From an uncultured virus (IMG/VR IMGVR_UViG_3300036852_000709) (Duplodnaviria; Heunggongvirae; Uroviricota; Caudoviricetes), in IMG/VR virus record IMGVR_UViG_3300036852_000709: a stretch of 60,521 nucleotides of DNA; one strand, 5' to 3'. The notes beneath the pieces are model-generated. The model saw nothing but the letters and a program-made list of their open reading frames with translations, ran no database searches and was not told the origin of the DNA. Shown here piece by piece: positions 27,902 to 59,506 of the stretch (positions within the stretch are counted from its first letter, which is position 1; each line of letters begins with the position of its first letter). The translations under genes and the position numbers were made by a program.

Positions 27902-28065
27902 ACTTACCTCGTCCTACCGCGAAGGATGATTTCTAGCCTGCTTTCTGCGCGCAGATCCCCCGCGTCGCGCGCGATCGAGATCCTCCAGTTCTTCACCAGA
28001 ACTCACGCCCTTCGCTCGCCATTCCCCACCACACAGCGACGAGCTTATCATGCCCGCCCATCGTG

Positions 28066-29250
28066 CTAAACGTCCCGCCCGTTCACGCGGACAAGCGAGG
28101 ACTGACCCACCTCGTTGGAGTGCTCTCGTTCGGCCCCGCATTTAGAGCATCGTGAGGATGTTATGGTTGTGACCAATGTGGTCGCGTAGACACGATCTTC
28201 GGTGACATCGTGGCGCCTCCCAGCGGAGTCGTACCAGTCGTCTACCTTCACGGTGACCAAAGATTGGCCGCCATTTCGTTCTGTGGTGCGCCTGTCACCC
28301 AATATCCAAGCGTGTTGGCCTGAGGGGCACATCGACGATACGAACTTGACCGCATGCCCAAGACAAAGGTCAATGGGCCCCATCTCGGAGATGGTTGTTG
28401 ATCCGTAGCCTGGATGGTCCGCGCTCGGTGGACATAGCGGGAATGGATTATTCACCAATCACCTCCATCGTTCGGAATGTCGACCGTCGCAAGCAAGTAG
28501 TCTAGGTTGACCCCGCCGTCTGCGATGGTTCCGTGGTCCATCACGCGCTCACCGTTTTCGCCAGTTTGCATCACATGTAGGTTGCCGCTCGCCGAGAACA
28601 GCCAGAGCGACTTCGGCCAGCGCTTGGCAAGGCGCTTCAGCGCGCGGATGGCGCTCAGCTCCTCAGGCGTTGGGATAAGGCTCGCGGTCATAGCGAGATC
28701 TTGGTGATAGTCCTAAGCGCGTGCTCAATGGCGTGTTGCTGTGCCGTGTGCCAGCGCCTGTCATCCGCGCAGGTGGCCAATTCTACCTGCAAGCGCGAGT
28801 TGACCAGTTCCGCCCGCAGCGCCTCGAGGCACTCTTCCTTCATCGCGCGGCGACCATCGAATTTCTTGTACATAGCCCGCCCCTCGTTAGCCGGTCGCGT
28901 CACGGCATCACCTTGCCCGCAAGAACGTCGGCCAGTGCTTCGACGAGCCCATCATCTGCGTCTTGCGTTCCCATGGCGCGAAGGACGCGACACGCATGCT
29001 CGGACCACGACAGTGCAATGATCGTGGCGCAACCATAATCCGGCCACATCTCGCGCAGTCGGCCGGCTCCCATGAGCTTGTTCACAACCTCGAGGATCGG
29101 CTCCTGATGTGAGCCATCTTCTTCCTCGATACCAATCTCTCGCGCGAGGATGTCAGGCCAGTTGTCGGCCATGTCGTCATCTTGATCGAGATCAAACCCG
29201 TCCGGAAAACGTTTCGCAATGGCGTTGGTCACAGCGTCGTCGGTCAGCAT
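28066..29250 (-). other. antisense block A (4 small genes)
   Basis: 28066-28458, 28452-28691, 28688-28903, 28900-29250. Confidence 0.7.
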
Positions 29251-29256
29251 TTATCA

Positions 29257-29285
29257 ACCATAAGCATCGCGAACGCCACATTCAA
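29257..29285 (-). promoter_or_regulatory. block A promoter
   Basis: TTGAAT-N17-TATGGT-N6-ATG; TGCT before -10. Confidence 0.75.
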
Positions 29286-29800
29286 TGCCCGACTACGCCG
29301 CCGCGCTTCTTTCCGGACGCACGGAGACACCTCGCGCGATCGAAGCCCGCACAGAGGTCGAGACCATCATCTCCGAGATGTGCGCTGCTGTCTCGAAAGA
29401 ACTGGGCCGCGCTGTGATGGTCATGCTCACCGGCTCGGAACTTCGCGCGAGATTCGGATTTGCCTCGCTTGCGGAAGACCAGGGGCGCGTCTACATCCTG
29501 CGCTCGGACTGGGAGCGCGCACGCGACATGCCCCACGTGCACGGCGTCGAGGTGCTCACGTACCACCGCACCGACGTGGGCTACCCCGTGCATCTGTCAT
29601 GGCTCGACGGGGTTGAAGACGCGTGCAGGGGCAGGCGTGACCCACCCGCTGCGCCACCAGACGGGCGCGCGCTCTCATCGATGGAGTCCATGGATCGTGG
29701 GCTCGAGGCCTCGCTCGCTCGTGGGCTTCGTCGCCACCAGGTCAACGCTCGCATCTGGCGCACGGTCAAGGAGTTCGCGGCAGAAAGACCGCGGTCATGA
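29285..29800 (+). CDS. hypothetical protein between terL and portal
   Basis: 171-aa ORF. Confidence 0.65.
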   Translation: MPDYAAALLSGRTETPRAIEARTEVETIISEMCAAVSKELGRAVMVMLTGSELRARFGFASLAEDQGRVYILRSDWERARDMPHVHGVEVLTYHRTDVGYPVHLSWLDGVEDACRGRRDPPAAPPDGRALSSMESMDRGLEASLARGLRRHQVNARIWRTVKEFAAERPRS

Positions 29801-31711
29801 CTTGGTAGCCTCGTAATAGCATCTGGCGTACTCTTCCTCGCCGTGACGTTTTCGGAAGGCCGCGATTCGTTCGGCTGGCCAACTGTCGCCATAGCGAGGC
29901 TCCGCCCAAGTTCGGCCTAGCAGGTACTTGATCCAATTTACACGGCCGATCGCACGGGCGTTATCCGATCGACGGAGCCGCCTAGCACGTTGCGCGCCAG
30001 TATCCACTGTCCGTGTATCGGATGGATCCGAGGTCATAGCTGCCATGTTATGCAGATGCGTATCGATGACGCGCTGCTCAGAAAGCACAACCCCGCATTG
30101 CCATAGGTCGGCATCTTCCGGCGGAATCTCGTAGGCGATCACAGGTCGTGCTCCACGGCATACACGAAACCTCCGATCCGCTCCTTGCGGCACGTTGGAC
30201 AGCCGCACGCGACCACCTTTAAAGGCCAAACAGATCGACGGTGCGACGCGGCGATCAGTCTGAGCAGGAACACCGTCACGTACTCAGCGGGTGTCATGGC
30301 GTCACCGGAGCCGCAAGGCCTTCAAGCGGGTCGCCAAGCCCCTGAGCAATGCACCGCCGCCGAAGTTCTTCCGCCTTGAGTAGGTACGGCGCAGACACCC
30401 GTGCTGCCTCTTCGTCATTAGGCCTGAACGCCACCTCACCGATCGCGCGCCTCTGGACGGCCAGATATCGAAGAGACGCGTCCTTGTCGATCTCCTGGCC
30501 TTGGCGATACTCTCGCCAGATCGCATCCCGCATTGGTTTGCGCAGGCTGAACCAGCATGGGCGACACATAAACATGGCTGGCGGAACGCGTGCTCTGCAG
30601 CCGTGGGCGTGGCACGTGTGACTCATGATTCCTCCTTGCTACGCGGTACACCACCAGGACATTTCGTCGGGAAGCGAAGCGCGGTCACGCCCATAGCCTC
30701 CGCGATGTCGACCAATTCCGCGTCATCGATGTCCACAAGGTTCACCACATGCCATCCATCAGGCGCGTTGTGTGGCATCACAGAGCCGTCGTCGAATAGC
30801 AAAAGGTCTGTCTGGTGGCAGACGGAGCACGTTCCATGTGGGAACTCGGAGACGGGATCGAACCCAGGTGATGGTGGCGGACAAGGAACAGATTTAACGT
30901 TCTTCACCATGCCCCCATGTCTGTGAATTGAGGATAGGCGCCACGTAAACGCAGGACGATAGCTGCTTGCCGATCGCGTATGCCATTCTTCATCCAACCT
31001 GGATGGTCCCGCCACGACAATGCTCGCGAGTTGGTCGGTGCTGCGCCAGCAGCAATACTTCACCTTCTTGGCGTCCGTCACTTCCGAACCTCCACGGCAC
31101 ACGCATCAAGCGTGAAGTCGAAGTCGACCGTGAACCGTCGCTCTGGTTTTGATGGGTTGTCTGGCTCGCGCACGTTGATATCGATTTCGTCGAATTGCCC
31201 ATCGGACCACCACCTGTCCTTGCCGAACCGCTCGGCTGCCTTGCCCGCATACGGCGCCTCTACTTTGGCGCCCACCCCGCCATCGACCCAACAGAAGAAC
31301 CTCACCCCGCGTGGTAGCGCAATCACTTAACAGCTCTCAGGCGACCTCGGTTTGGACGAGCCATAGCCGAGGCGTGCCGAAAACAAACCCACGCTTCGCC
31401 GCCCACGGACGGAACGTTGCCCATGCCGCGCGTGCTCGTTGGTGGGCCTCGCGATACTCTGGCACATCAAGGAATCCATCAAGCTGGAAGCCTGTGTCGA
31501 GGTCGGGCACGCCGTCCTTCCCACTGGCCCCGACCGCAACCCAGAAACCGATCACGTCGTAATTCTTCGTGTCGCCGTGCGGATGATCTGGTCGAGGCCC
31601 GCGTCCTGCCTTGTATTTGTCGAGGAGGTCGTACAATCCGCCATCTCCCAGGCTTGCTGCATGGCCGCTCGCGTCCACGCCAAGAATCACCGCATGCGTC
31701 ATCTGTCCCAT
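29795..31711 (-). other. antisense block B (5 genes)
   Basis: 29795-30229, 30294-30626, 30623-31102, 31078-31326, 31337-31711. Confidence 0.7.
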
Positions 31712-31735
31712 AGCGTTCTCCGCACCTCCGCATAT

Positions 31736-31763
31736 AACTTAACCACGGCTGGCGCTTGAGCAA
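31736..31763 (-). promoter_or_regulatory. block B promoter
   Basis: TTGCTC-N16-(TGGT)TAAGTT, then GGAGG. Confidence 0.7.
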
Positions 31764-33606
31764 CAACGGCATCGACCAAGCCGCGTACGAGCGCGCGCAA
31801 CGGATCCTCGCGGCGAACCTGTCGCCCAGGTACACGGAACTTGGCCGGCTCAAGTCCTACGTCATCGGGAATCAGTACAACGGTCGCCCGTCGTGGTGGA
31901 AAGACGATGTGCCGCTGCTGGAGCGCGCCCCATGCGTGCAGTACCCGATTGCCGCGCGCGCGGTGGACAGCAACGTTGACCTCGTGCTCGGCGATGGGCG
32001 CTGGCCAACGATCACGTCTCACCCGGGCGAGGACGACACAGCGTTCGACGACGCCTTCGGCCTGAGCGAGGATGAGTCGAAAGATCTTGACCGGTTCGTA
32101 AAGGGGCTCGTCGAGCACGCGCGGCTTCAATCCGCATGCGATGAACTGCTCACCGAGGGGCAATCGTCACGGACGGCGGTGGCGATCTGCTACGTGCGCG
32201 ACGGCTGCATCAAGGTCGAGAGCATCGAGGCGAAAACAGCAACGCCCGCGTTCTCGGAGACGAACCCTGGTGAGGTGCTCAGCCTCGAGATCAAGTACCC
32301 GTACCTCGATCGGTTCTACGACGACGAGCGGCGTTGCTGGTCGTTCCGCGTGCTCATGTACCGCCGGGTGATCGATGCGGACAAGGACGTTGTGTTCGAG
32401 CCTGTCCTCGCGAACGAGCATGGGCAGGACATCACTCCGTCGATGTGGCGCCCGAAAAAGAACGGCACCGTCGAGCACAACCTAGGTTTTTGCCCCGTCA
32501 TCTGGCATCGTTTCCGCCCTCGCACTGGCGACGTATCGAGCATCGACGGACGCGCCATTCACGAGCAGGTGCTCAATGAAATCGATGCTGTCAACCGGTC
32601 ATGGTCGCAGCATCACCGAGCGGCGTTGTACGCTGGCGATCCACAGATCATCGAGATAGGCGTTGAGGATGGCGACGTTACCGCACCGACCGGACGTCAG
32701 CCAAACCCACAAGCGTTTCAGCACGGCGACCCAGAAGCGAACCTAGCCTATGGCGGCGGCAATGTCCGCGGTGTTGCATACAGCGAGGTAGCTCGCAAGC
32801 GAGGCGCTGGGACCATTTGGCGCTACGCCAATCCGAACAGCAAGGTCGAGTACCTGGTGCTTCCAGAAGGCGCGCTCGCGACGCTGAAGGACGACGGTGA
32901 ACGTGTCCTCGAACTTCTGAAGGAGGCGCTTGCGGTCGTGTTCATCGACCCAGCGAACACGAAGATCAGCGGAGACATCTCTGGGCGTGCGCTTGAGATC
33001 CTGCACAAAAAGCAGATCGAGCGGTGTGACAAGATCCGCGGCGACTTCGGGGACAACTGTCTCCTCCCGCTCGTACACATGCTCCTGCGCATGGTGTACG
33101 TCGTCGCGAAGCGGGGGGACATGCTCTACATCCCAGGCATCAAGACCATCATGCCCGTGCTCACGAAGTTCGCCGCGATGGTCAAGGGGGACGCGGGCAA
33201 CGACAACGCGCGGTGGTTCAAGCCGTACATCAAACTGATGTGGGGGCCGTACTTCCGCGCGACGTCAACGGACGCGAAGCTCGACCACGAGATGGTGACC
33301 CTGGGAATCGACAAGATGTTGATCACCAAGGAGTCCGCGGTTCGAAAACTCGCGCCGCATTACCCGGATATCAGCGACGTCCCGCAGTACCTCGAGACGC
33401 TAGAGGCCGAGGAAGAGGAGCGCACGGCGAAGATGCACGACGCTCAGGTGGCATTGATGGGCGGCGAAGCGCCGGGCGATGCTGTCGAGCCGGAGGACAG
33501 TGCGCAGGTTGCTCAGGAGCCTGGCGCTTCGAAGCGCCACACGGCACAGCGCGGCAAGCCCAAACCCGTAGCGCCAGGGTTCCGCAAGCGATTCAAGGCG
33601 GCGTAG
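31756..33606 (+). CDS. portal protein
   Basis: 616 aa after TerL; EHNLGFCPVIW, ISGRALEIL SPP1-like motifs. Confidence 0.85.
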   Translation: MSNNGIDQAAYERAQRILAANLSPRYTELGRLKSYVIGNQYNGRPSWWKDDVPLLERAPCVQYPIAARAVDSNVDLVLGDGRWPTITSHPGEDDTAFDDAFGLSEDESKDLDRFVKGLVEHARLQSACDELLTEGQSSRTAVAICYVRDGCIKVESIEAKTATPAFSETNPGEVLSLEIKYPYLDRFYDDERRCWSFRVLMYRRVIDADKDVVFEPVLANEHGQDITPSMWRPKKNGTVEHNLGFCPVIWHRFRPRTGDVSSIDGRAIHEQVLNEIDAVNRSWSQHHRAALYAGDPQIIEIGVEDGDVTAPTGRQPNPQAFQHGDPEANLAYGGGNVRGVAYSEVARKRGAGTIWRYANPNSKVEYLVLPEGALATLKDDGERVLELLKEALAVVFIDPANTKISGDISGRALEILHKKQIERCDKIRGDFGDNCLLPLVHMLLRMVYVVAKRGDMLYIPGIKTIMPVLTKFAAMVKGDAGNDNARWFKPYIKLMWGPYFRATSTDAKLDHEMVTLGIDKMLITKESAVRKLAPHYPDISDVPQYLETLEAEEEERTAKMHDAQVALMGGEAPGDAVEPEDSAQVAQEPGASKRHTAQRGKPKPVAPGFRKRFKAA

Positions 33607-33771: not shown

Positions 33772-34865
33772 TCATCCGCGAGGCTCCCAGGTTGTAGGCT
33801 CTTTGCCTGTCAGCTCCACAATCTCACCGTAGGAGAATCCTCCGCGTTCCGCGATCCGATCTGCCGTTTGGCCGCTTGAATACTTGAGATCGTATCTACC
33901 CCACACCATTAGGTGCTCGGTCCATGAAATGGTGCCAGGCCCTTTGCCACAGCGCTCGCTTCGTTGAACAGGAGCGCGTCTGCCGCAAATGCACGTGGGA
34001 CAATGGATCTCGCTCATCCTGCCTCCTTCAGCACGGCGCGGAGCCGGGCAACAGCCGCGCTGGCCTTTGCGGACATAGGCGCCTGGTTCGTCCACCAATC
34101 AAGCGCTTCCTCCAAGGCGTCGGCGAGTCTTCTGGCTTGCAGCATGGTCGACCATTCCAATTCGTTCGGCAGAGGACCAAGCCGATCCGCGGTGTCTCTC
34201 AGGCGCTTCTCCCTCGGTCCCATCATTCATTGCCCTTCAAGACACCACGAAGCCGATCAATCACGAGCGAGGCAGATGGCGGATCGAATGGCTCGTCGAA
34301 GCAAAGCGACCACTCGGCGAGCGCTTCCTCAAGAGCGTCGGCGAGCCGCGCTGCTCGGAGTTCGGCGCGCAACTCGCGGGCACGGCCCTCAGCGCCATTA
34401 AGCAGATTCTCCCTCGGCCCCATCACTTCTCCCTGAATTCGCCAGGAATTGACTCGCCGCAAGCCTTGTACTCCATGCCCATCTGATGATGGTGCGCCCC
34501 CAGGAGACGATCCAGTCCAGCCACCCGTTCTCTAATGCCGATCATGGCCGCAACGTGCTCGTCAGACCAGTGGCGCTGCACCGACTCGGCAAGTATAAAT
34601 AAGCATTCGAACACGGTTGTGCTCAGAATCGTCAGTTCCGACAATAGTTCATCACGGGCTTTGTTGGTCGGTTCCGCCATCATTTCTCCTTTGGCCATGT
34701 GGCGTCCATCAATTCGTTGAGCATTTGGATGATCTCCTCGACGTTCTCGCGGGTAGAACCGAGCATGATCTGTTTGTTATACGGCAAGGCCTCCAACTTT
34801 GCGGAGTCATTGCCTGCCACGAACACCCGAATAATTCCGTCCTTAGTCGTCGCGTCATACGCCAT
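33772..34865 (-). other. antisense block C (5 genes)
   Basis: 33772-34017, 34014-34226, 34223-34423, 34423-34683, 34680-34865. Confidence 0.7.
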
Positions 34866-34871: not shown

Positions 34872-34900
34872 ACCATAACCACGCATGCCAGCATTCGCAA
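34872..34900 (-). promoter_or_regulatory. block C promoter
   Basis: TTGCGA-N17-(TGGT)TATGGT-N6-ATG. Confidence 0.8.
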
Positions 34901-35385
34901 CAGCCTCCCCGCTTACACCTGCTAGCCTCGATGCGATCATCGCTGATCTGCAGCTACGCACGGTGGAAGCGATCGACCTGTACAACGCGGCCAGGGTTGC
35001 ACACTGGAACGTGCGCGGCATGTCGTTCGGCCCATTGCATGACCTGTTTGGCAAGGTGGCCAACGGGTTATCCGATCACGCCGACACGCTCGCCGAAAGG
35101 GCCGTCGCGCTTGGCGGAATTGTCGATGCCGATAGCCGTGCCATCGCCGAGGGCTCGACGCTGACGGAGTATCCCAAGGACCTGAGCAATGGCGAGGATC
35201 ACTGCCGAGCGCTGTTCGCGATGATGCGCGAGTACGTGGCCAACCTGTACGCCTCGGCGAAGGACATCGACGACGCGGGCGATCCGATGACGTTCGACGT
35301 CATCACGGGAGTCGTTCTAGACGTCGAGAAACTCGCGTGGATGATCGGCGCACATGTGGATGACAAGACGCCAGAGCGTGGTTAG
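34885..35385 (+). CDS. dps: Dps family ferritin-like protein
   Basis: HWNVRGMSFGPLHDLF, DTLAERAVALGG. Confidence 0.88.
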   Translation: MPAFATASPLTPASLDAIIADLQLRTVEAIDLYNAARVAHWNVRGMSFGPLHDLFGKVANGLSDHADTLAERAVALGGIVDADSRAIAEGSTLTEYPKDLSNGEDHCRALFAMMREYVANLYASAKDIDDAGDPMTFDVITGVVLDVEKLAWMIGAHVDDKTPERG

Positions 35386-35388
35386 CCT
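35360..35388 (+). promoter_or_regulatory. promoter, TGGT-TANNNT class
   Basis: ATGACA-N17-TAGCCT-N6-ATG 35395. Confidence 0.6.
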
Positions 35389-35394: not shown

Positions 35395-35936
35395 ATGGGA
35401 CGAGCGCCATTCGACACGACGCGGCTGGACGAGGAATGCGAGCGCGTTGCTCATGAGTTATCGGGGCCAGAAATGGCGTGGGGCCGGTGGTCAGGCGAGG
35501 TGGTCAACGCGAATCCGACTGAAGCCATAAAACGCTTGCCCATCCCGCGGTTCGAGGACGTGCATCGCGGCGCAGCGGTTGAGGCTCTAGAATGCGCGAC
35601 GGTGGAGCCGCCGTGCCTTCATCGAAGCCTGCGCGAGGCTGAGTTTAGGCCAGTGTGCGAGCAGTGCGAAGCCGAGCGGAGTCAAGGATGAATAACCGGT
35701 CTCGCGTTATCTGGGGCGTCGACGCAGCGAAAACTCAAGATATCAACGAGAAGCGTTTCGCGGACATGTGGGCGTCGCTCGAGACCTTCTACGAGAAGAC
35801 TCACACCTCTGGCGTTGTAACTCGATTCTCGTCCCGTCGAGATCTGTCGCCTGCCGATGTCACAACGGCACATGAGCGACTAGGGCGAGCGAGAACAGAG
35901 CATTCTCTCGTTTGGAGAACGCATCTCCTCGTGTGA
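35395..35936 (+). other. two hypothetical genes
   Basis: 35395-35691 and 35688-35936. Confidence 0.55.
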
Positions 35937-36662: not shown

Positions 36663-36991
36663 GTTTTGGGGAGGTTAGCAAAGGCGTATCGATCGTCGAT
36701 TGGTACCGCAACCTCGAAGACCACGATCGGCAAACGATGACGTGCCTTGTCGACAGCAACTACATGGCCGCGCTCGAGTTTGCCGCTTGGTGCGTTGAGC
36801 ACGGGACGCCGATGTTTTCGGTGGATGTGGGGCGGTGTTGACCGTGGGTCTCTTTAATGACTGCATGCATTCGACCGAGCGAGAGCACGCGATGGTCGAC
36901 TGCGCTTGGTGCGGGGCTGTGAAGTCCGTGAACAGTCGATCATGCGCTGGCGGTTGGGCTACGATCCTGTGCATGGAGTGTCGCGAGACGA

Positions 36992-37914
36992 TCACCCACG
37001 ATACGGACTGCCAGTCGTCGGCGCGTTCCGCTTGTCATACTCGGCGCACATCGCGTCAGCAATCTCCGCTGCGGTGATGGCAAACCTAATACGTGCGTCC
37101 TTGGGCTCTTCCCCCGGCATGCACAGCAGTTGTCCCCAATCTCGTGCCGTCATGCACGAGATATAAAACGTCGCCCACATTGCGTGAATCATTGGTTCAT
37201 CGGTCCTCGTTCAACGCGGCACAGGTAGGAGTCAGACCGTTGCGCGCTAGCAGTCTCGTAGAACGTCTCAGCCTCAGCATGGTTATCAAACACAGCGAAC
37301 GTTGTGAGGCCCTGTCCATCGTCGCGAAGGATGAACACCAGCCACTGGTTTGCATGCTGGTCAGGCGTTAGCCGAACCAGCGACTCCGCTGCCTCCATCA
37401 TTGTGTCGACCGCATGATCATAGATGTGAGCGGTGGCGAGCACCTTCTTTGCCCACTCCAACTCGTCAGGCTCGATGCCCAGATATGCGAGGATGCTTTC
37501 CTCACTCATTGGTTCCTCGGTCATTCGAGGCGGAAAGAAGATCGTCCGCCAGGCGTAAGACCGCGCCAGGTGCAGCGCGATACGCCCGTGCTGCGCTCAA
37601 CACGCGCTTCGCCCACGGGATCTCGTCGGCGGTGATGCCAAGGTAGGAGAGCGCTAGGTTAAAGCCGAACGCAGGGTCGCACACGTGGATACCACTGTCG
37701 CTCATGGCCGCACCCGCGCCAAAAGATCGGCAACGATCTTCCGCGCCGCGTCGTTGACAGCGGGGCGAAACTCGTCAGACGCGAGCAGTTCCTTTATGGC
37801 CTGAAGGACGGCCAGGGCACTCGCGCAAGAGTCCACTTGCTCCTTCAAGTACTCGATCTCCGAGTCGGCTATGTGCGCTGCGCGAGCCATCGCATTCATC
37901 AATTCGCTATCCAT
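36992..37914 (-). other. antisense block D (4 genes)
   Basis: 36992-37192, 37189-37524, 37502-37705, 37702-37914. Confidence 0.7.
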
Positions 37915-37920
37915 CAACCA

Positions 37921-37949
37921 AAGGTAACCACCAACATGATGCCCATCAA
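37921..37949 (-). promoter_or_regulatory. block D promoter
   Basis: TTGATG-N17-(TGGT)TACCTT-N6-ATG. Confidence 0.75.
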
Positions 37950-38052
37950 GCCCTCCGCGAAGTCACCCCCGAAGATGCCCAAGCAAATGCCGCCCGTGAA
38001 GGCTAAGCCCGTCCAGCCGAAGCCTGTCGTCAAGGGCAAGAAGGGCAAGTGA
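37936..38052 (+). CDS. 38-aa Lys/Pro-rich basic peptide
   Basis: MMPIKPSAKSPPKMPKQMPPVKAKPVQPKPVVKGKKGK; stop 1 nt before next start. Confidence 0.65.
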   Translation: MMPIKPSAKSPPKMPKQMPPVKAKPVQPKPVVKGKKGK

Positions 38053-45251: not shown

Positions 45252-45280
45252 ACCATAACCATCCATGCCATCCATCGCAA
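45252..45280 (-). promoter_or_regulatory. block E promoter
   Basis: TTGCGA-N17-(TGGT)TATGGT-N7-ATG. Confidence 0.8.
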
Positions 45281-46095
45281 CCCAAGTCGGCGGCACGCCG
45301 ATACCCGTCGCAGCGGGCGTTGCGGACTCGCGGATCGCGGACCCGTTCATCGACGCACTGAACGCGTACTACGGGCATTGGATCAAATGGGGCCACGACG
45401 CGAAACTGTCGAACATGGGCGGGCCTGACAAGACGTTCCTGATCACAGACGCGTGCCCTGTCGCGAACCGGTTTCCATTCGATCCTGGTGGCTGGTGGGT
45501 GCGCAAAGTGCAGGACAGCAAACTCCCTGTTCTGTGCATCTGGCACCGCGGCTCCAAGCGCGAGAAGCAGACCATGGTGTACGACGTCAGGCAGCGCAAC
45601 CTGGGGCTGTTCTACGCGTTTCCGGAGGTGCTCAGTCCGCGTGGGTTCGCCGTGCGCTCAGGGCTCATGGACAGCATTGACGCCACCATTTATCGCGCGA
45701 CGGAGCGAGGGTCACACCCAACGTTTGCGCATAACGGATCGGCATTGGGCGCGCTGCTCACCGCCACCGTCGGGGCAACGCCCAACACGCTTGGCTGGAC
45801 GTACGACAGCGCGACCATCCAGTTCGAGGCGCCAAGGCCAGAGATCGGATCGGGAGCCGGCGGAGCAACCGACTACGGGCTCGAGCAATACGGTTTCATG
45901 ACACTACGCGGGACGGTCACGACAACCGAGCGCATCATGCAGGACACGCTCGAGGATCCGAACGACGTGTTCGCTGGCGGCATCCTCGCGGGCATCAAGG
46001 TCACGGGTCTCGGCGACGTCAACGACGCGCTGCCATACATGGATCGCGTGCTGTCACATCCGGACGGCAGCGAGGACGGGGACGAAGTTATCTAG
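45265..46095 (+). CDS. putative tail completion/terminator protein
   Basis: position; KLPVLCIW motif. Confidence 0.55.
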   Translation: MPSIATQVGGTPIPVAAGVADSRIADPFIDALNAYYGHWIKWGHDAKLSNMGGPDKTFLITDACPVANRFPFDPGGWWVRKVQDSKLPVLCIWHRGSKREKQTMVYDVRQRNLGLFYAFPEVLSPRGFAVRSGLMDSIDATIYRATERGSHPTFAHNGSALGALLTATVGATPNTLGWTYDSATIQFEAPRPEIGSGAGGATDYGLEQYGFMTLRGTVTTTERIMQDTLEDPNDVFAGGILAGIKVTGLGDVNDALPYMDRVLSHPDGSEDGDEVI

Positions 46096-48088
46096 GCGTA
46101 CACGGCGATGGCTCCAACACGCGGCCCATCTCAGCACACAACTCTATCGCCTCGTCCACGCTGATGTCTATGGCGTCCGACACGCCGCCCATTCTCGCGG
46201 CCGATAGAATCGCAGACGCCAGCAATCCGAGTTGATAGAGCGCATTTGACAGCGCGTGCTGCTCATCGGCCAAGTTGGATTGAGCCGCGCCTTCTGCGGC
46301 TGCCTCGCTGGCGATGGCCGCCTCGACGCTCGCCTTAGTCCAGCCCGCGCCGAAGCACATGGGACACTTGGCGCGCATCCAGTCTTCTTTATTTATGCAC
46401 AGCCCACACGGGGCCACCAGCCGTAGCGCCTCATGATGCGCACGTTCGGTCGGTGTCCACATTCCCTCTGTCACGTCAGGGACGAGTCCTACGGTAAGCG
46501 CACGCGCCATGGCTGCATATAGTTCAGCGGTCATATCAGCCTTCCAGGCTCGACTTGCACTGCTTGCATAGTGGATTAAAGACTCCTACTCGAACAAGGC
46601 CACAACCGTTGCACATGAGACTTGGCCCGCCTTCAGTTGCTGGCACCTCGTGCGCTGGCTCCGGCGGTGGGGCATGCTTGGCGTAGAAGGCGTCAATCTC
46701 TGCGCGGGTCGCATCGGGAGGCGGGAAGTCAGGCATCGGTCACTCCGTTTGATTGGTAGCCACAAATCTGCTAACGACGGTGCGATCCGCGAATTCTTCG
46801 CGCGTGGCGATCGTGTCGCTGTACCACATAGCGTATTCGAGGACGGTGGTAGTTCGGTCCAGGTCGCCACGAACAAGCCGTCTGCCAAGGACGCTTGCCG
46901 CGAGTAATTCGCTCAGCGAACATGGGCACAATGCGATTATCGTGTCATCCGTGTGGCGAATTTCGACCTGCCCATCGTCGTTGACACATATAGTCGCCCT
47001 CATCGCGGCATTCCATTCGTGATGTTGATTGGCGTTGGCAGCTCGAAGGCGAGGACTTCACCGTCATCCTCGGATATGAGCGCTCGCGATTTACGCAGGC
47101 TCGTCGCCGCACCAAGCGCAACCTTCTCGTCGCGGCACGCGAGGGCCATGCTGTGTTCGATGAACGATGCGTGGTCAAAGCCGGGGCCAGGTTTTGTTTC
47201 AGGCATGGCCCACGACAGGTAATAGACGTAGCCGATTCTGAGGCTCATCCCAACTCCTTGGTCGCGTGAATGGCGTCGAGAACAAGGTTGTTTGCACGAA
47301 CGATCTTGATGTGCTCTGCAAGATCATCGTGCGCACGGATGAGAGCGCGCTCATCGGCGCTTCGCTCGCGCACGCAAAGCGCGACGCAGCGGGACAGGTA
47401 CTCGAATAGCGTCAGATCTCGCTCTTTGATGATGCGGGTTACGTTGGTGCTCATTCTGACAGGCCATCCTTCGCCTCTTGCAGCATCGCGATGATCTCAT
47501 CGATCTCTTCGCGCGTGGATCCAAACCCAACGGTTTCGCAGTCGTGCACGTATTCAACGATCACGTACATGTCGCCATCGTGACCGCGCCGATGAAAGAT
47601 GCGAACATCGCCATCTTTGGTGGTCTTGTCGTAGGCCATTACTGCGGCTCCTCTACGGTTTGCTGCGGAGTGCCTCGCGCCGCTTCATTGGCTCGACGTC
47701 TCTGCCATGTCAGAATTGCACCGCGGCAGCGCATCGTCGCCCCATCGCATCGTTCGTGTCGACACGAACTCGGGCTACATTCACACCCGTCCGGAAGAAC
47801 GGCGGACGGCGCCGTAGGAATGACGACAGGTGCCATGTGCTCCACGGAACATCCACCCGCGCGTCCTTCCAGACTCACAACAACCTCGCCGTGCCCCAAT
47901 GTCCACGCGGCGGATCGTGTCGCCCGTCGCTCATACTCGCCATGTCCAAGCGCGGGCTCGAATAGAACCACCGTCCCGACTGGATAGTACGCATTCCACA
48001 GTTCAGCGGTCATCTTCAACATCTATTTGCTCCCGTCTTCCACCGGACGTTTGAAGTAGAGGACCGCGGTCGGCGATGTATCGCTCAT
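46088..48088 (-). other. antisense block F (7 genes plus mini-ORF)
   Basis: 46088-46534, 46536-46736, 46740-47003, 47000-47248, 47245-47454, 47451-47639, 47639-48022, 48023-48088. Confidence 0.7.
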
Positions 48089-48116
48089 ACTCCCATTTCG
48101 TTCTCACTATCAGTTC

Positions 48117-48145
48117 ACCATAACCATGCCCATCGCTAACGTCCA
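48117..48145 (-). promoter_or_regulatory. block F promoter
   Basis: TGGACG-N17-(TGGT)TATGGT. Confidence 0.75.
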
Positions 48146-48675
48146 TGGCTGACCCTCGCAGATCACCAACCATCGTTCCAGGCGTCGCCAACATGCAAGG
48201 CGGGCGCGGCCCACAGGTTATTGACTACCTGATACCACTCGACCGTCCGCGCATGTACCGGTGGTCAGATGTGAGCGACGACGTGGACAACGCCATCACC
48301 GCGATTCGCCCACAGGGTGGCGCGGCTGGGGCGTGGCTCGACGTGCCCGAGTACGACCGCGGGACAGACCTCACGGATGCGAGCGTGACCATCAGGCCAT
48401 CTGGCAACCGATGGCGCGTGCTGCCCGCTGCGACGCTGACGACTGACCGCGTGCTCACATTGGGCGCACCGACCGCAACGGAGACCTTCCGTGCGGGGCA
48501 TTGCATCCTCATCACCAACCAGGGACAGGCGCGTGTCCTCACGATCGTGAATGGTGGTCCTGCCGCGGGCAACGTGGCCGTTATGCCGGTGACTTCCAGG
48601 TCCTGGTGCCTCGCGATGTGGGACGGGACCGACTGGATTCATAGGGCGTCTGGGTTGGCGCTGGCGGCCACGTAG
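48145..48675 (+). CDS. putative virion structural protein
   Basis: ends WDGTDW; fibre-like. Confidence 0.6.
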   Translation: MADPRRSPTIVPGVANMQGGRGPQVIDYLIPLDRPRMYRWSDVSDDVDNAITAIRPQGGAAGAWLDVPEYDRGTDLTDASVTIRPSGNRWRVLPAATLTTDRVLTLGAPTATETFRAGHCILITNQGQARVLTIVNGGPAAGNVAVMPVTSRSWCLAMWDGTDWIHRASGLALAAT

Positions 48676-49677
48676 CCCAGGTGCAAACGAATCGCGACGC
48701 GTTCAGCGCTAGAAAACCCAGCTAGCTTCGGCACTACCATAGCCGACACATCCGCTTCCGCATTTGCGGTCAGACCGCTCAAACCACGGACCAACAACCT
48801 CCAGCATCGCCGCCAGGCATTGTCATTCTTTCGGCGAGTGTGATAGGCGCGCCTGTGGATCTTTGCCAATGTGTGGGCCGCAAGACGAAGGTTGTGCGCC
48901 GCCGCGTAGTTGGCTAAGTCCGCACAGGCCCTTTTCATGTCTGCCATCATCTCATAATGGCTAGACAGAGCCATAGTTATGCCGATCATGGATCATCGCC
49001 ATGGCCGATGGCGCGGCGGACATCGTCGAGGGCGACGGTTGCATCGCACATCCCATAAAATTGCCTGTATCGACTGCGCTCATCCTCGATGATTCTGAGG
49101 CAGCGCTCTCGCTCCTCCCGTTTGGCCTCCGCGATCACAGCCAGCAATTCAGCGATTTGCTCGTCGGCGTCCGGGTTCTCGTAAACCGATGAAAAGAGAG
49201 TCGTTCCGTTGTCCGTCGTGAGATAGAAGTTGTGGTTGTCGCGCGAGGCTCTCACAACATCCTCCACAGACCGACTGACCAATACGCCGCACAGGCACCC
49301 AACCCGAGCGCCCCAAGTGCCTGAAACACCGCGGTCGGGATCGTGTCTGTGTCCCCATTTCGCGCGCGCCACGCATCGAACGCGTCACGGCTGCATAGCA
49401 ATGCAGCGAGAAGAGCGCCTACGACGGCCATGCCACGAAGAAACGGGCGCTGCTCAGGCGCCCAACAGATCTCATGAACGATTGCGCCAACTGCCAACGC
49501 CGCGAGGACCGACAGCGCAACGACCAGGCCGACCCCACGGCGAAAAAGCTTCGCTATCCAGACGTCATCGAATTGACGAAGCCTCCAGATCTTGACAGTC
49601 GCCCGAGATACCAGCCCGGCCGCGGCGACGAGCGTTAGCAAGACGAATACCTCAATCATCAGCATCTCTAGGTTCAT
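48639..49677 (-). other. antisense block G (3 genes, one membrane protein)
   Basis: 48639-48989, 48986-49372, 49252-49677. Confidence 0.65.
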
Positions 49678-49692: not shown

Positions 49693-49720
49693 ACCATAAC
49701 CATCGGCGCCCGCGCCGCAA
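49693..49720 (-). promoter_or_regulatory. block G promoter
   Basis: TTGCGG-N16-(TGGT)TATGGT, then GGAGGA RBS. Confidence 0.75.
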
Positions 49721-49731
49721 GGTCCTTGACA

Positions 49732-57200: not shown

Positions 57201-57211
57201 CCAAGGATTAG

Positions 57212-57979
57212 ATGGCTCTACCTACGTTTGCGCCGGAGACGGCTTCGATATCTGTCCTCAGCAGTTCCAAAATGAACACGCTGTATGCGGCGTTGCCTTT
57301 GGCGCTGGACCCCGTAGGGGGCGGGACATGGGTCACCGCCGCGCCATCCACGATCAACGGCGCCCACACCTTCACGTTCGGTTGTCCCGTGACGATATCG
57401 GGAGCCATCACACTCTCGGGCACCGTAGCGAACATTACGTGCGGTGGGACCGTCACAACAAATGCGCTGACGATCTCAAATGTCGCCAACTCGGTGGCGT
57501 TGGCGTCCAGGTCCGTGACAAGAGCGGAATGCGTCTGTCCTCAATTCGATCAAACCGAGTGGGATGCTCGAGCAGACGGCGTGGTGCAGTCGGTCGCGAT
57601 CACCGGCAAGGCGCTCGTGCAGCCGATCACGGCCCCGCACGGCTCAGTGCTTACGAACGTAACGGTGACGCTCCAGCCGGCAGGTGGTCACGGAGCCTTG
57701 CCGGCGGTGCTGCCAGTACTTGGGGTGTATAAACGCAGTCTAACAACTGGTCTCGACACGGCGTTGGCGGCTCCAGTGACGGATTCGAGCGCATCGGTGG
57801 CAGCGTTTCAAGCCCTTCACACCATCGACTCAGGCGTCCTCGCAGAGACAATCGATCGTACAACGTTTCGGTACTACGCCACGATGTCTAACGAGAGCGG
57901 AGCAAATGCCGCAGTGGGCCTAGTGTATTTTGGGGCAAGGCGCGCCACGACGATAACAAGACTCGACGAAGCGCCTTAG
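57212..57979 (+). CDS. putative tail fibre/structural protein
   Basis: Thr/Gly-rich beta repeats. Confidence 0.55.
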   Translation: MALPTFAPETASISVLSSSKMNTLYAALPLALDPVGGGTWVTAAPSTINGAHTFTFGCPVTISGAITLSGTVANITCGGTVTTNALTISNVANSVALASRSVTRAECVCPQFDQTEWDARADGVVQSVAITGKALVQPITAPHGSVLTNVTVTLQPAGGHGALPAVLPVLGVYKRSLTTGLDTALAAPVTDSSASVAAFQALHTIDSGVLAETIDRTTFRYYATMSNESGANAAVGLVYFGARRATTITRLDEAP

Positions 57980-58413
57980 TCGGCAACGCAGACGCCCGAC
58001 AGGCAATAGTTGTTGGTGTTACCGTTGGTATCTTGGCATTGCGCGTCCGCATAGCACGAGCACACCCCGCCAACGCACGCGCCTCCACCTGGAATGACAG
58101 GCGACTCGCACGGGTCGTATTGTTGCTTGCCCGCACAGGGTGACGTGGCCGAACACCAAGGCGACCTGCCGTCTACGTGGACCGGCGCGCCCCAATATCC
58201 GGCGGGCTCGAAGTCATCCTCGCACACGAGCACGTCGGCGTCGTCCGGGCACTGCGCATCCTTGGCGGTGACCACACCGCGAGTGCACGGCGCGCACTCA
58301 CCATCCAACATCACGCCCGCGCACGCCACTGCATTGGTTTCACCAACATAAGTAAGATCTCCGCCACACCCAAGCGCGAGGCATACGAGCCACGCCGCAG
58401 CAATACGTTTCAT
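57976..58413 (-). CDS. Cys-rich lipoprotein (antisense block H)
   Basis: signal peptide with LALGC; many Cys. Confidence 0.75.
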   Translation of the reverse strand: MKRIAAAWLVCLALGCGGDLTYVGETNAVACAGVMLDGECAPCTRGVVTAKDAQCPDDADVLVCEDDFEPAGYWGAPVHVDGRSPWCSATSPCAGKQQYDPCESPVIPGGGACVGGVCSCYADAQCQDTNGNTNNYCLSGVCVAD

Positions 58414-58442
58414 CTCGCACCTCTTCTCCTGGTTCGCTGGCT

Positions 58443-58470
58443 AACATAACCACATCGGCCGACCCGCGAA
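58443..58470 (-). promoter_or_regulatory. block H promoter
   Basis: (TGGT)TATGTT; weak -35 inside a hairpin. Confidence 0.55.
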
Positions 58471-58601
58471 AGGGACCGGCGATGTGGCGCAGTCGACGTG
58501 ACGGCGGAGGGGAGGCAAGCGACACGTGTGTAGGCACGCCGTACAGCACGGCAAGTCACATCTTGGGATTGCCTAGGATTGTGGTTGACGGCGTGGAGGA
58601 T

Positions 58602-58886
58602 TTATGCAGGCGGTCGCTCCAACCACGCATCAACAGCGTCGAGCATCTCGTCCGCGACGGGAGCGCCCTCAGGAACGTAGAGATAAAGGTTGCGTGTGCC
58701 CGATCGTAGCTTGTGTGCTTCGTAGTAAACGAAACGGAATGGCGTATCGAGCGGCATGCGCGGTGGGGCATCGGCGAGGATCATCCAATCCTCCACCGCT
58801 CGCCGTTCCCGCACGGCGTCGCGCACGAATGGCTCCGTCCAGTCAACGGGCACAACGCCAGAACCAGTCCATCGGAGAGCGATCAT
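58602..58886 (-). CDS. hypothetical protein (block I)
   Basis: ATGA-coupled to upstream gene. Confidence 0.6.
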   Translation of the reverse strand: MIALRWTGSGVVPVDWTEPFVRDAVRERRAVEDWMILADAPPRMPLDTPFRFVYYEAHKLRSGTRNLYLYVPEGAPVADEMLDAVDAWLERPPA

Positions 58887-59434
58887 GGCGCCATCGTGTG
58901 CACGATGAACGGTCGGCGCACACCGGTCGCGTGTTCTGCTGCAGCGTCGAGCGCGTGTCGTGCCCGGTCCTCAGGGTCTCCCCCATGATGCTTCGTGGCG
59001 TGGAGCGCGCCCATGGCGACCTGCCCGCCTGAACCGAGCGCCACATACCCATCGCGGAACCGAGTCGCGTTGTATGAGGAGTCGATCCAGTAGAGCGCCC
59101 CACGGATGGCAAACAGGACCGACCAGTTGTTGTCCTCGGTTGGCGTCTTTGCCGCTTCGGGACAGTGTTTCTCAAGGGCTTCGCGGAGCGTGGTCGCGAG
59201 GTTGAGCGCAATGTAGGCGTCGAGGTTCACACCGGACATGTCGTAGTTAATCTCGACGGCATGCCGAAGCACATCGCAGACCCGATTCAACCCTGCGACG
59301 GCGAACATGTGCTGTCGGCCGACGATCAACTTCGAATGTGCGTCGGGCAACGACAGCACAACGGACCCGCCACAGAAGCTGTCCGCGGCCATCGTGACGC
59401 CGCCAGCGTGTTCGATTCCAAGGATGCAGGTCAT
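58883..59434 (-). CDS. HslV/proteasome beta-like Ntn peptidase (block I)
   Basis: N-terminal MTCI...MAADS; ALGSGG. Confidence 0.8.
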   Translation of the reverse strand: MTCILGIEHAGGVTMAADSFCGGSVVLSLPDAHSKLIVGRQHMFAVAGLNRVCDVLRHAVEINYDMSGVNLDAYIALNLATTLREALEKHCPEAAKTPTEDNNWSVLFAIRGALYWIDSSYNATRFRDGYVALGSGGQVAMGALHATKHHGGDPEDRARHALDAAAEHATGVRRPFIVHTMAP

Positions 59435-59478
59435 TGGCGGCCAAACTGTATGAGTTCATCGATAATTCGCACCCAGCC

Positions 59479-59506
59479 ACGATAACCACGCACGTCCCAT
59501 AGTCAA
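59479..59506 (-). promoter_or_regulatory. block I promoter with leaderless mini-ORF 59431-59472
   Basis: TTGACT-N16-(TGGT)TATCGT-N6-GTG. Confidence 0.75.

What the first reader, a model, noticed from the sequence alone, without database searches (positions are those of the whole stretch)
27914..59506. Structural arm interleaved with nine antisense gene cassettes, each headed by the same promoter
Seen: + strand virion genes are separated by nine minus-strand blocks of small genes. Eight of nine block heads carry TGGT-TANNNT (-10 at 31736, 34872, 37921, 45252, 48117, 49693, 58443, 59479). The ninth (29257) has TGCT-TATGGT. Seven have a TTG-starting -35 at 16-17 nt. Most blocks end stop-to-stop with, or overlapping, the upstream + strand gene (29795/29800, 44473/44585, 46088/46095, 48639/48675, 57976/57979), with no terminator I could see. 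Known: morons in late operons are usually few and carry their own terminators. Inference: this is a distributed excludon-like system in which host-sigma transcription expresses accessory genes and runs antisense into successive virion genes, silencing the late arm until phage regulators take over.
Basis: partly seen in the sequence, partly recalled or inferred. Interest (0 to 1): 0.85.

Follow-up and report, generated by a model that had tools for sequence, protein, structure and literature searches.

The report
Antisense cassettes inside phage virion operon
A soil phage carries blocks of small accessory genes, each behind the same promoter, inserted backwards between its conserved virion genes; this is an unusually dense version of layouts already known from other phages, and whether it controls the virion genes is untested.

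Summary
TGGTTANNNT occurs 12 times against 1.3 expected. Eight copies plus the variant TGCTTATGGT head minus-strand operons of small genes lying between plus-strand terminase, portal, Dps, MuF, capsid, sheath, tape-measure and hub genes. Seven of nine have TTGnnn 16-17 nt upstream. In four, the head gene's ATG starts 6-7 nt after the -10 (leaderless). Corrections: there are eight intervals, not nine. One quoted overlap rests on a doubtful ORF. A tenth copy (35379) points in the sense direction, and two more lie in the left arm. In 96 related loci the plus genes keep their order, and 0 of 37 cassette ORFs has a homologue. So the cassettes are lineage-specific insertions. The eight convergent junctions show no terminator, although the left arm has a strong one. 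The best reading is an array of moron-like units arranged as noncontiguous operons. Closest known: phi80 tai/ati, 80alpha, T4-type PeSL regions and PAK_P3 early antisense RNAs. Silencing of late genes is plausible but untested. The opposite direction of control has experimental precedent. The sigma factor that reads the motif is unresolved, because the phage encodes two sigma-like proteins. New variant of a known kind.

The parts
29257..29289 (-). P1: TTGAAT-17-TGCTTATGGT; ATG 29250 lies 6 nt after the -10 (leaderless)
27914..29250 (-). Block B1. Credible genes are 28452-28691, 28688-28903 and 28900-29250. 28066-28458 is uncertain and 27914-28141 doubtful
31736..31767 (-). P2: TTGCTC-16-TGGTTAAGTT; GGAGG leader, ATG 31711
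29795..31711 (-). Block B2, five genes. 30294-30626 matches phrog_18063 and Myxococcus phage Mx1. The tail overlaps the stop of plus gene 29285-29800 by 6 nt
34872..34904 (-). P3: TTGCGA-17-TGGTTATGGT; ATG 34865 is leaderless. The Dps start codon (34885) lies inside the spacer
33772..34865 (-). Block B3, four to five genes including the paralogue pair 34014-34226 / 34223-34423
35356..35388 (+). Sense-oriented promoter of the same class: ATGACA-17-TGGTTAGCCT. The Dps stop TAG lies inside the -10, and ATG 35395 lies 6 nt after it
35395..35936 (+). Sense cassette of two small genes (35395-35691 and 35688-35936, ATGA overlap) upstream of MuF
37921..37953 (-). P4: TTGATG-17-TGGTTACCTT; ATG 37914 is leaderless
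36675..37917 (-). Block B4. Four credible genes span 36992-37917, including the paralogue pair 37189-37524 / 37502-37705. 36675-36995 is doubtful
45252..45284 (-). P5: TTGCGA-17-TGGTTATGGT; ATG 45244 is leaderless. Plus gene start 45265 lies inside the spacer
44473..45244 (-). Block B5: 45101-45244 and 44814-45053 are credible. 44473-44898 is doubtful
48117..48149 (-). P6: TGGTTATGGT with no TTG -35
46088..48107 (-). Block B6, eight tiled genes. 47639-48022 matches phrog_19503. 47451-47639 is a paralogue of the B3 head gene. The tail overlaps plus gene 45265-46095 by 8 nt
49693..49724 (-). P7: TTGCGG-16-TGGTTATGGT; short GGAGG leader, ATG 49677
48639..49677 (-). Block B7, three genes. 49252-49677 looks like a membrane protein by eye. 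The tail overlaps plus gene 48145-48675 by 37 nt
58443..58488 (-). P8: TTCGCG-16-TGGTTATGTT. It is overlapped by a terminator-like hairpin that ends block B9
57976..58413 (-). Block B8: one Cys-rich gene with an N-terminal signal-like segment. The tail overlaps plus gene 57212-57979 by 4 nt
59479..59506 (-). P9: TTGACT-16-TGGTTATCGT. A GTG 6 nt after the -10 opens a 13-codon ORF whose stop overlaps the ATG at 59434
58602..59434 (-). Block B9: HslV/proteasome-like peptidase 58883-59434 and 58602-58886
2554..2586 (+). Left-arm promoter of the same class (TTGCGT-16-TGGTTAGGTT) upstream of 2617
18161..18193 (+). Left-arm promoter of the same class (TTGCCC-16-TGGTTAGGTT). It lies upstream of the sigma-like gene 18215 and the helicase, and is divergent from a CI-like HTH gene
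25636..25663 (+). Candidate promoter GTGACG-16-GTGGCTATAGT at the head of the packaging and virion arm. It is the only plus-strand promoter candidate found for that arm
7161..7868 (+). Sigma-70-family protein (regions 2 and 4)
18215..18799 (+). Second sigma-like protein (region 2 only)
17595..17624 (+). Strong intrinsic terminator (11-bp stem, T7) at the left arm's convergent junction. It serves as an internal contrast to the arm

Best explanation
The window is part of a tailed phage with a contractile tail, assembled from a soil metagenome. In this lineage at least ten small transcription units have been added between conserved virion genes. Nine run antisense and one runs in the sense direction.

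Each unit starts at one class of sigma-70-family promoter. The class has an optional TTGnnn -35, a 16-17 nt spacer and an extended -10, rTGGTTAnnnT. In about half of the units the first codon sits at the predicted transcription start, which would give a leaderless mRNA.

The same promoter class drives two left-arm operons. One of them holds a sigma-like gene and the replicative helicase. I therefore infer that the cassettes are expressed with the pre-late genes, or constitutively if the phage is temperate.

No plus-strand promoter can be found at the eight downstream plus block heads, and no terminator at the eight convergent junctions. I infer that virion genes are transcribed as long read-through RNAs, possibly from the candidate promoter at 25636-25663. 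Those RNAs would cross every cassette. This is the noncontiguous-operon layout, repeated eight times.

If so, sense and antisense transcription must interfere with each other, through polymerase collision, promoter occlusion and double-stranded RNA. The net direction of control is not shown.

Shown: the motif, its enrichment and placement, the cassette gene structure, insertion relative to relatives, and the lack of terminators. Inferred: promoter activity, timing, read-through and interference.
For: Motif: 12 matches against 1.29 expected. The 11 placed sites score 19.8-25.6 on a matrix built from them, and the next best scores are 17.0 and 13.5 (circular, but the gap is clear).

Leaderless spacing: ATG lies 6-7 nt after the -10 at 5 of those 11 sites (29250, 34865, 37914, 45244, 18201), and also at the sense site 35395. 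The chance of 4 or more in 11 is 8e-5.

Cassette genes: they tile with 4-nt overlaps, and most show a coding codon pattern (GC3 > GC1 > GC2, G1 > C1). Three match phage protein families. There are three paralogue pairs.

Insertion: in 96 related loci, 19 of 34 plus ORFs of the arm have homologues in the same order. None of the 37 minus ORFs does. All 16 matches to G001 and all 10 to G003 are plus genes. Flanking plus genes abut in relatives at all seven junction types.

Composition: cassettes B1-B7 have GC 0.576-0.598, against 0.613-0.661 for plus blocks.

Terminators: no enrichment and no hairpin clustering at junctions. The left-arm convergent junction has an 11-bp stem plus T7. The one same-strand junction has a hairpin of -29.3 kcal/mol.

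Plus promoters: no shared plus-strand motif lies upstream of 9 plus heads beyond the reverse complement of the known one.

Relatives: G001 has the same -10 heading a leaderless, unrelated antisense gene (endonuclease VII) at the position of B7. L002 has TTGCGG-16-TGGTTATTGT at the Dps start with no cargo.

Precedent: noncontiguous operons in phages phi80 and 80alpha (PMC11364771 and PMC11087260, passages read).
Against: No transcript data of any kind exist, so promoter activity, start sites and read-through are unproven.

The candidate promoter at the head of the plus arm rests on two look-alike sites only (7865 and 25636).

A failure to find plus promoters is weak evidence. Late promoters can be short and degenerate.

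One promoter of the class points in the sense direction into MuF. It would converge with P4, so the layout is not a tidy two-strand timing scheme.

The classical moron definition (recalled) includes a terminator, which is missing here.

Four or five of the listed minus ORFs look non-coding.

My home-made gene caller put a known portal on the wrong strand in one higher-GC relative. Strand maps of relatives are therefore only indicative. The synteny argument rests on tblastn instead.
Confidence: 0.65

Rival explanations
1. The cassette promoters fire first. Their unterminated transcripts run antisense into the virion genes and keep the late arm silent until phage regulators take over. In this reading the antisense transcription is itself the selected function.
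For: No terminators lie at 8 of 8 convergent junctions, although the phage uses a strong one elsewhere. Four cassette tails overlap the 3' end of the upstream plus gene. L002 keeps the promoter at the Dps start, pointing into the portal gene, with no ORF behind it. Two phage sigma-like genes could provide the switch. PAK_P3 makes early antisense RNAs, 15 of 20 of them in its structural region, and its authors propose that these shut off late genes (PMC4933390, passages read).
Against: No RNA evidence exists. The cargo-less promoter is a single case and could be a deletion remnant. A bidirectional terminator at these junctions would also stop read-through of the virion operon, so its absence is explained without invoking silencing. 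Untranslated antisense tails are typical Rho substrates (my inference), which would limit their reach to the 3' end of one gene. The sense-oriented copy at 35379 would transcribe MuF at the same time. Relatives manage without any such brake.
Confidence: 0.2
2. Noncontiguous-operon logic in the other direction. The cassettes are accessory genes, for example exclusion, defence or host take-over functions, that must be switched off once virion genes are made. Late read-through transcription occludes their promoters and pairs with their mRNAs.
For: The same structural facts apply. In addition, every minus promoter overlaps or abuts the start codon of the downstream plus gene, so a plus-strand polymerase passes over it. 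Direct precedents exist. TaiEcA of phi80 lies antisense in the Q-controlled late operon and falls when Q is expressed (PMC11364771). 80alpha has four noncontiguous operons that switch with the life cycle (PMC11034616 abstract; PMC11087260 passages). The cargo includes a signal-peptide-like Cys-rich protein and a membrane-like protein (read by eye). A CI-like HTH gene and an excisionase-like HTH suggest a temperate habit. G001 carries a serine recombinase.
Against: No integrase lies in the window. No cassette protein matched a defence family: 0 of the 30 cassette ORFs of B1-B6 that I scanned matched, and B7-B9 were not scanned. Function is unknown for nearly all cargo. There are no RNA data.
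Confidence: 0.3
3. The motif is read by a phage-encoded sigma factor, not by the host housekeeping sigma. The cassettes would then be middle genes in a sigma cascade of the SPO1 kind.
For: The phage encodes a 235-aa sigma with regions 2 and 4 and a second protein with region 2. The second gene lies directly behind one copy of the motif. The motif is more uniform than ordinary host promoters, with four identical 10-mers. G001 shares the -10 and has a protein with sigma region 4 that is 54% identical over 37 residues. A more canonical pair, GTGACG-16/17-TATAAT and TATAGT, exists and could be the host-type class.
Against: The motif fits the general sigma-70 plan: TTGnnn, 16-17 nt, TAnnnT, with a start 7 nt downstream. 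Early promoters of phages such as T4 are also highly uniform (recalled). No full-length homologue of either window sigma was found in G001, but that record is only 72% complete. One copy sits where a lytic early promoter is expected, divergent from the CI-like gene.
Confidence: 0.3
4. Artefact. The minus ORFs are shadows of plus-strand genes, and the motif is a plus-strand signal or a chance repeat.
For: Some listed minus ORFs do look non-coding: 27914-28141, 36675-36995, 44473-44898 and 58556-58771. My gene caller erred on a relative.
Against: The minus ORFs tile with 4-nt overlaps. Three match phage families and there are three paralogue pairs. The N-terminal Thr of the HslV-like protein sits directly after the ATG. 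Codon patterns are coding-like. Start-codon spacing after the -10 is non-random. The motif is enriched. An identical contig is on record elsewhere.
Confidence: 0.03

Closest known systems
Noncontiguous operons in phages: phi80 taiEcA/atiEcA in the Q late operon, and 80alpha ith-1/tha-1 plus three further regions (PMC11364771, PMC11087260, PMC11034616)
   Same: One or more genes with their own promoter lie in the opposite orientation inside a long operon. The two sets of transcripts overlap, and the two expression states exclude each other. In phi80 the interrupted operon is the late one.
   Different: In those phages single genes are involved, at one to four places per genome, and transcripts were measured. 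Here there are nine units of 1-8 genes in eight places. They make up 34% of a 31.6-kb virion arm and all share one promoter class. Nothing has been measured.
Morons of lambdoid and other temperate phages (definition recalled, not read here)
   Same: Extra genes lie between genes that are adjacent in relatives, have their own promoter, and differ in composition.
   Different: The classical moron has its own terminator and is usually a single gene. Here no terminators are seen at the convergent ends, the cassettes hold several genes, and orientation is antisense in 9 of 10.
PeSL regulatory cassettes and hyperplastic regions of T4-type phages (PMC2839356 and PMC4122927, abstracts read)
   Same: Many copies of a strong sigma-70-like promoter are attached to small nonessential ORFs of unknown function. 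These are grouped in variable regions interspersed among conserved core gene blocks.
   Different: A PeSL is a promoter plus a stem-loop terminator. Here only 1 of the 11 promoter regions I folded has such a hairpin. The phage is unrelated and much smaller. Recombination between copies cannot be tested without close relatives.
Early antisense RNAs over structural genes in Pseudomonas phage PAK_P3 (PMC4933390, passages read)
   Same: Antisense transcription is concentrated in the structural region, and its authors propose that it damps late genes early in infection.
   Different: The PAK_P3 antisense RNAs are described as lying within genes, not as cassettes of coding genes. Here the antisense units are coding operons with a defined promoter class.
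Excludon (abstracts of PMC12288877 and PMC7154746 read)
   Same: Overlapping transcription between oppositely oriented neighbours gives mutually exclusive expression.
   Different: Excludons are defined from measured long UTR overlaps between two loci. Here only the DNA layout is known, and the nested layout fits the noncontiguous-operon subtype better.

Membership tests
Sigma-70-family promoter | -10 hexamer TAnnnT with a -35 TTGnnn at 16-18 nt | tested here: met
   The -10 is present at 9 of 9 arm sites. TTGnnn lies at 16-17 nt in 7 of 9. In G001 the same -10 occurs without a -35.
Sigma-70-family promoter | Transcription starts 5-9 nt downstream of the -10 | not testable with these tools
   No RNA run was listed. 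The indirect evidence is ATG at 6-7 nt after the -10 in 5 of 11 sites.
Moron | Lies between genes that are adjacent in related phages | tested here: met
   0 of 37 cassette ORFs is found in 96 loci, and the flanking plus genes abut in relatives.
Moron | Own promoter | tested here: met
   Met at sequence level only.
Moron | Own terminator | tested here: not met
   No terminator is seen at the 8 convergent ends. One hairpin lies at the same-strand junction.
Noncontiguous operon | Gene(s) in the opposite orientation, with their own promoter, nested between genes of one operon | tested here: inconclusive
   The layout fits. That the flanking plus genes form one operon is only inferred, from the lack of plus promoters and of terminators.
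Noncontiguous operon | The operon transcript overlaps the antisense gene, with mutual repression | not testable with these tools
   Needs stranded or long-read RNA data.
Excludon | A measured long antisense transcript covers the neighbouring, oppositely oriented locus | not testable with these tools
   Only 4-37 nt coding overlaps at 4 junctions can be read from the DNA.
PeSL cassette | A strong early sigma-70-like promoter, repeated many times, next to small nonessential ORFs | tested here: met
   12 placed copies, at sequence level.
PeSL cassette | A stem-loop terminator joined to the promoter | tested here: not met
   Only the 58443 site folds well (z -2.9). The 10 others folded give z -2.1 to +0.95.
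PeSL cassette | Recombination between copies explains insertions and deletions between close relatives | not testable with these tools
   The closest relative has only 53% portal identity.

The most novel reading that the evidence does not exclude
One promoter class, placed head-on at eight points along the virion-gene arm, acts as a genome-wide gate. While it fires, no polymerase can traverse the arm and virion mRNA is paired and destroyed. When a phage sigma factor replaces the factor that reads it, the whole arm opens at once. The cargo genes would be secondary passengers on a regulatory scaffold. The cargo-less copy in relative L002 and the same-position, different-cargo copy in G001 would support that.
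Probability: 0.15. Interest if true: 0.75.

Novelty: new variant of a known kind. Interest (0 to 1): 0.5.

Why it matters
Antisense genes nested in phage operons have only recently been shown to couple accessory functions to the phage life cycle. In the cases studied they occur one to four per genome.

This phage devotes a third of its virion arm to such units, all behind one promoter class. It would be a strong natural test case for two questions: how far convergent transcription can be tolerated or exploited in a late operon, and how promoter-bearing cassettes spread between conserved genes.

It also gives a clean, motif-defined set of about 30 phage ORFans that are probably co-expressed. 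That is a useful handle for finding host take-over or exclusion functions.

Its practical value is limited, because the host is unknown and the sequence comes from a metagenome.

Tried and rejected
- Whole genome of the window: none is held.
- Megablast of 20 kb against 50,697 phage records: no match.
- RNA evidence: no RNA holder was listed. The two holders are soil-metagenome DNA runs that may be the source. I did not lay reads.
- Portal protein alone against viral contigs: nothing. The sheath protein alone found only an identical fragment.
- Search for a shared plus-strand (late) motif upstream of 9 plus heads. The best 8-mers occur in 7 of 9, and random controls reach 7-9. A listing of AT-rich 8-mers showed no recurring element.
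- Survey of minus genes in relatives for a head motif: no pattern. My gene caller is unreliable at higher GC; it called a portal on the wrong strand.
- PADLOC on the 30 cassette ORFs of B1-B6: 0 hits. B7-B9 were not scanned.
- ESM Atlas on two cassette proteins: viral hypothetical clusters (0.92) for 31337-31711, and nothing usable for 46088-46534.
- Rfam: only a tRNA-like match, outside the arm.
- Literature: 'anti-late RNA' gave 0 papers, so my recollection of T4 anti-late RNA is uncited. A search for interleaved structural modules gave nothing relevant.
- Host. 7 of 16 related contigs sit in MAGs labelled Myxococcota, and one cassette protein's best phage match is Myxococcus phage Mx1. Phage contigs are often mis-binned, so I treat this as a lead only.
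- The idea that the motif works on the plus strand as a promoter for leaderless plus genes: rejected, because the plus-strand reading gives no TAnnnT at a workable distance (by eye).

Full report
WHAT THE WINDOW IS

The window is 60.5 kb at GC 0.61. It has no near match among 50,697 phage records, and no whole genome is held for it. Two soil-metagenome DNA runs hold the tested stretch.

The right half encodes, on the plus strand:
- a large terminase (26693-27901);
- a portal (31756-33606), with 191 homologues, some carrying the SPP1-type portal domain;
- a Dps/ferritin-like protein (34885-35385);
- a MuF-like protein (35943-36662);
- a major head protein (41375-42469);
- an HNH nuclease, a tail sheath (50051-51649), a tape-measure protein (53968-56247) and a baseplate hub (56247-57200).

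The last plus gene runs off the end, so the genome is incomplete.

The left half is almost entirely plus-stranded. It encodes ParB-like, RecE/RecT-like, helicase and HTH proteins, an IS1-like transposase, and two sigma-70-family proteins at 7161-7868 and 18215-18799.

CHECKING THE OBSERVATION

TGGTTANNNT occurs 12 times against 1.29 expected, and 0 of 100 shuffles reach 12. Eight copies are on the minus strand at exactly the coordinates given. The ninth site, 29257, is TGCTTATGGT.

Aligned on the -10, seven of the nine have TTGnnn at 16-17 nt. Sites 48117 and 58443 do not.

A matrix built from the eleven well-placed sites scores them 19.8-25.6. The next best scores in the window are 17.0 and 13.5. 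This is circular, but the gap is wide.

Each site lies just upstream of a run of minus-strand ORFs. These tile the interval, often with 4-nt overlaps. Most show the coding pattern of this genome (GC3 > GC1 > GC2, G1 > C1), with a lower GC3 than the core genes. Three match phage protein families, and three paralogue pairs exist.

Four or five listed ORFs look non-coding: 27914-28141, 36675-36995, 44473-44898, 58556-58771 and perhaps 33772-34016. So only four of the five quoted tail overlaps are firm.

Blocks 57976-58413 and 58602-59434 are neighbours on the same strand. That makes nine units in eight intervals. Together they take 10.7 of 31.6 kb, or 34%.

SUPPORT FOR REAL PROMOTERS

At 29257, 34872, 37921 and 45252 the ATG of the head gene begins 6-7 nt after the -10, which is where transcription should start. 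The same spacing is seen at 18184. The chance of 4 or more in 11 is 8e-5. The remaining sites have GGAGG-type leaders or a mini-ORF.

In relative G001 the same -10 is followed by ATG at 6-8 nt in three places.

The class is not confined to antisense heads. Copies at 2577 and 18184 drive plus-strand left-arm operons. The second of these starts with a sigma-like gene and the helicase.

Inside the arm, a copy at 35379-35388 points in the sense direction. It has ATGACA at 17 nt, the Dps stop codon lies within its -10, and the ATG at 35395 lies six nt downstream. It heads two small plus genes that run into MuF. The twelfth match, 22407, lies inside a gene and is probably chance.

RELATIVES

An alignment of 46 portals recovered 80 viral contigs, 16 contigs in MAGs and 80 metagenome contigs. 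The closest has 53% portal identity.

I ran tblastn of all window proteins against the 96 loci then in hand. Of 34 plus ORFs in the arm, 19 found homologues, always on the same strand and in the same order. None of the 37 minus ORFs did. DNA similarity is likewise confined to plus genes.

I also compared two whole relatives, G001 (59 kb) and G003 (65 kb, complete). All 16 and all 10 matches respectively are plus genes.

At each place where the window has a cassette, the flanking genes abut in relatives, or are separated only by small plus genes:
- terminase|portal: G003, L084, L048;
- portal|Dps: L084, L003, L045;
- MuF|38054: L002, L084;
- 44130|45265: G001, L045, L048;
- 45265|48145: L013, L045, L048;
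- hub|59506: G001.

The cassettes are also lower in GC: 0.576-0.598 for B1-B7 against 0.613-0.661. They are therefore lineage-specific additions.

Two relatives are informative.
- G001 has 8 copies of the motif, against 0 and 1 for the control pattern. One copy heads a single leaderless antisense gene, an endonuclease VII homologue. It lies exactly between the homologues of 48145-48675 and the sheath gene, which is where the window has block B7 with unrelated cargo. G001's second antisense block lacks the strict motif.
- L002 has TTGCGG-16-TGGTTATTGT on the minus strand across the start of its Dps gene, as in the window. Only 100 nt of non-coding DNA lies between it and the portal stop. It is the only one of the 10 loci with a Dps homologue to have this.

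TERMINATORS AND PLUS-STRAND PROMOTERS

Terminator-like sites are no commoner than in shuffles: 13 against 12.9, and 13 against 12.5. A sliding fold shows strong hairpins scattered through the genes and not gathered at the eight convergent junctions. The only ones near a junction are 27841-27890, inside the terminase 3' end, and 36866-36915.

This matters because the phage does use classical terminators. The one convergent junction of the left arm (17511/17629) carries an 11-bp GC-rich stem followed by seven T. The one same-strand junction in the arm, from B9 into B8, carries a hairpin of -29.3 kcal/mol (z -2.9) followed by UUAUGUU. That hairpin overlaps promoter P8. The ten other promoter regions I folded do not fold unusually.

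Upstream of nine plus block heads, no shared plus-strand motif appears beyond the reverse complement of the minus promoter. The start codons of the downstream plus genes lie inside or against the minus promoters.

The only plus-strand promoter candidate for the arm is GTGACG-16-GTGGCTATAGT at 25636-25663, ahead of the packaging genes. It has a near twin at 7865-7893.

MOST LIKELY MECHANISM

The layout is that of a noncontiguous operon, repeated eight times. A long plus-strand virion operon is read through from upstream. Antisense units with their own promoters are nested in it.

Terminators at the junctions would cut the virion operon too. That explains their absence without further assumptions.

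The cassettes share their promoter class with the helicase operon. I therefore infer that they are expressed before, or independently of, the virion genes.

Sense and antisense transcription must interfere. The sequence cannot tell which way the control runs.
The cargo-less promoter in L002 favours it.
- The opposite direction (virion read-through shuts the cassettes off) has been measured in phi80, and in a related form in 80alpha (PMC11364771, PMC11087260).
- The sense-oriented copy at 35379 converges on P4 across MuF. This argues against a finely tuned two-strand clock.

Which sigma reads the motif is open. It fits the general sigma-70 plan, and one copy sits where a lytic early promoter would be, opposite a CI-like gene. 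But the phage has its own sigma-like proteins, and G001 shares both the motif and a region-4 protein.

COMPARISON WITH WHAT IS KNOWN

Compared with morons, the cassettes meet the tests of insertion and own promoter but fail the terminator test.

Compared with PeSL cassettes of T4-type phages, they share the repeated strong promoter and the small unknown ORFs between core blocks. They lack the joined stem-loop in 10 of the 11 regions I folded.

Compared with published phage noncontiguous operons, they differ in number, in cassette size and in the single shared promoter class.

I found no paper describing a virion arm interrupted this often. That covers open-access text only.

VERDICT

The structural reading is well supported: accessory cassettes with a common promoter, inserted antisense, with no terminators. 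The regulatory reading is a reasonable hypothesis with a rival of at least equal weight. It is a new variant of a known kind, of moderate interest.

Noticed in passing
window 18013-18079 (-): Rfam finds a full-length tRNA match (36.2 bits, gathering score 29), while ARAGORN finds none. It lies between the CI-like HTH gene and the 18184 promoter. It could be a phage tRNA or part of an attachment site.
   Followed up: no
window 7161-7868 and 18215-18799 (+): Two sigma-70-family proteins. The first has regions 2 and 4, most like RpoH/RpoS/RpoD region 4. The second has region 2 only.
   Followed up: partly
window 7865-7893 and 25636-25663 (+); 40543-40570 (-): A second promoter-like class, GTGACGCG...rTGGCTATArT. 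It lies ahead of the radical-SAM gene and ahead of the packaging genes. A minus-strand look-alike (GTGACC-16-GGCTATGGT) lies in the intergenic gap before the 40598 gene and has no ORF behind it. GGCTATNNT occurs 10 times against 2.5 expected.
   Followed up: partly
L002 5446-5490 (-): A promoter of the window's class lies across the Dps start codon of a relative, pointing into the portal gene, with no gene behind it.
   Followed up: partly
window 34885-35385 (+) and 10 related loci: A Dps/ferritin-like gene is conserved between portal and MuF in this phage group (NCBIfam Dps 111 bits, cut-off 114). This is an unusual member of a head-gene module.
   Followed up: no
window 58883-59434 (-) and 59434-59472: An HslV/proteasome-like peptidase with Thr directly after the ATG. 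It is preceded by a 13-codon GTG ORF at the predicted transcript start, and that ORF's stop overlaps the peptidase ATG.
   Followed up: no
window 34680-34865 / 47451-47639; 34014-34226 / 34223-34423; 37189-37524 / 37502-37705 (-): Three paralogue pairs among cassette genes (44%, 43% and 39% identity). One pair is shared between blocks B3 and B6.
   Followed up: partly
window 11896-13074 (-), 13084-13115: An IS1-like DDE transposase, the main minus-strand gene of the left arm, lies next to a 13-bp GC-rich hairpin. A lower-GC stretch around 10-12 kb may mark an insertion.
   Followed up: no
window 18130-18175 (+): Three direct copies of CACGTT(G) lie just upstream of and over the -35 of the 18184 promoter. 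They are possible operator sites for the neighbouring CI-like protein. Several cassette promoters have GGAC 1-3 nt before the TTG.
   Followed up: no
L100 6361-6849 (-) = G001 46361-46849: The single antisense gene of relative G001 is an endonuclease VII homologue. It may be a free-standing mobile nuclease gene inserted before the sheath gene.
   Followed up: partly
window 37936-38052 (+): A 38-codon Lys/Pro-rich ORF starts 5 nt beyond the P4 motif, directly upstream of the 38054 gene.
   Followed up: no
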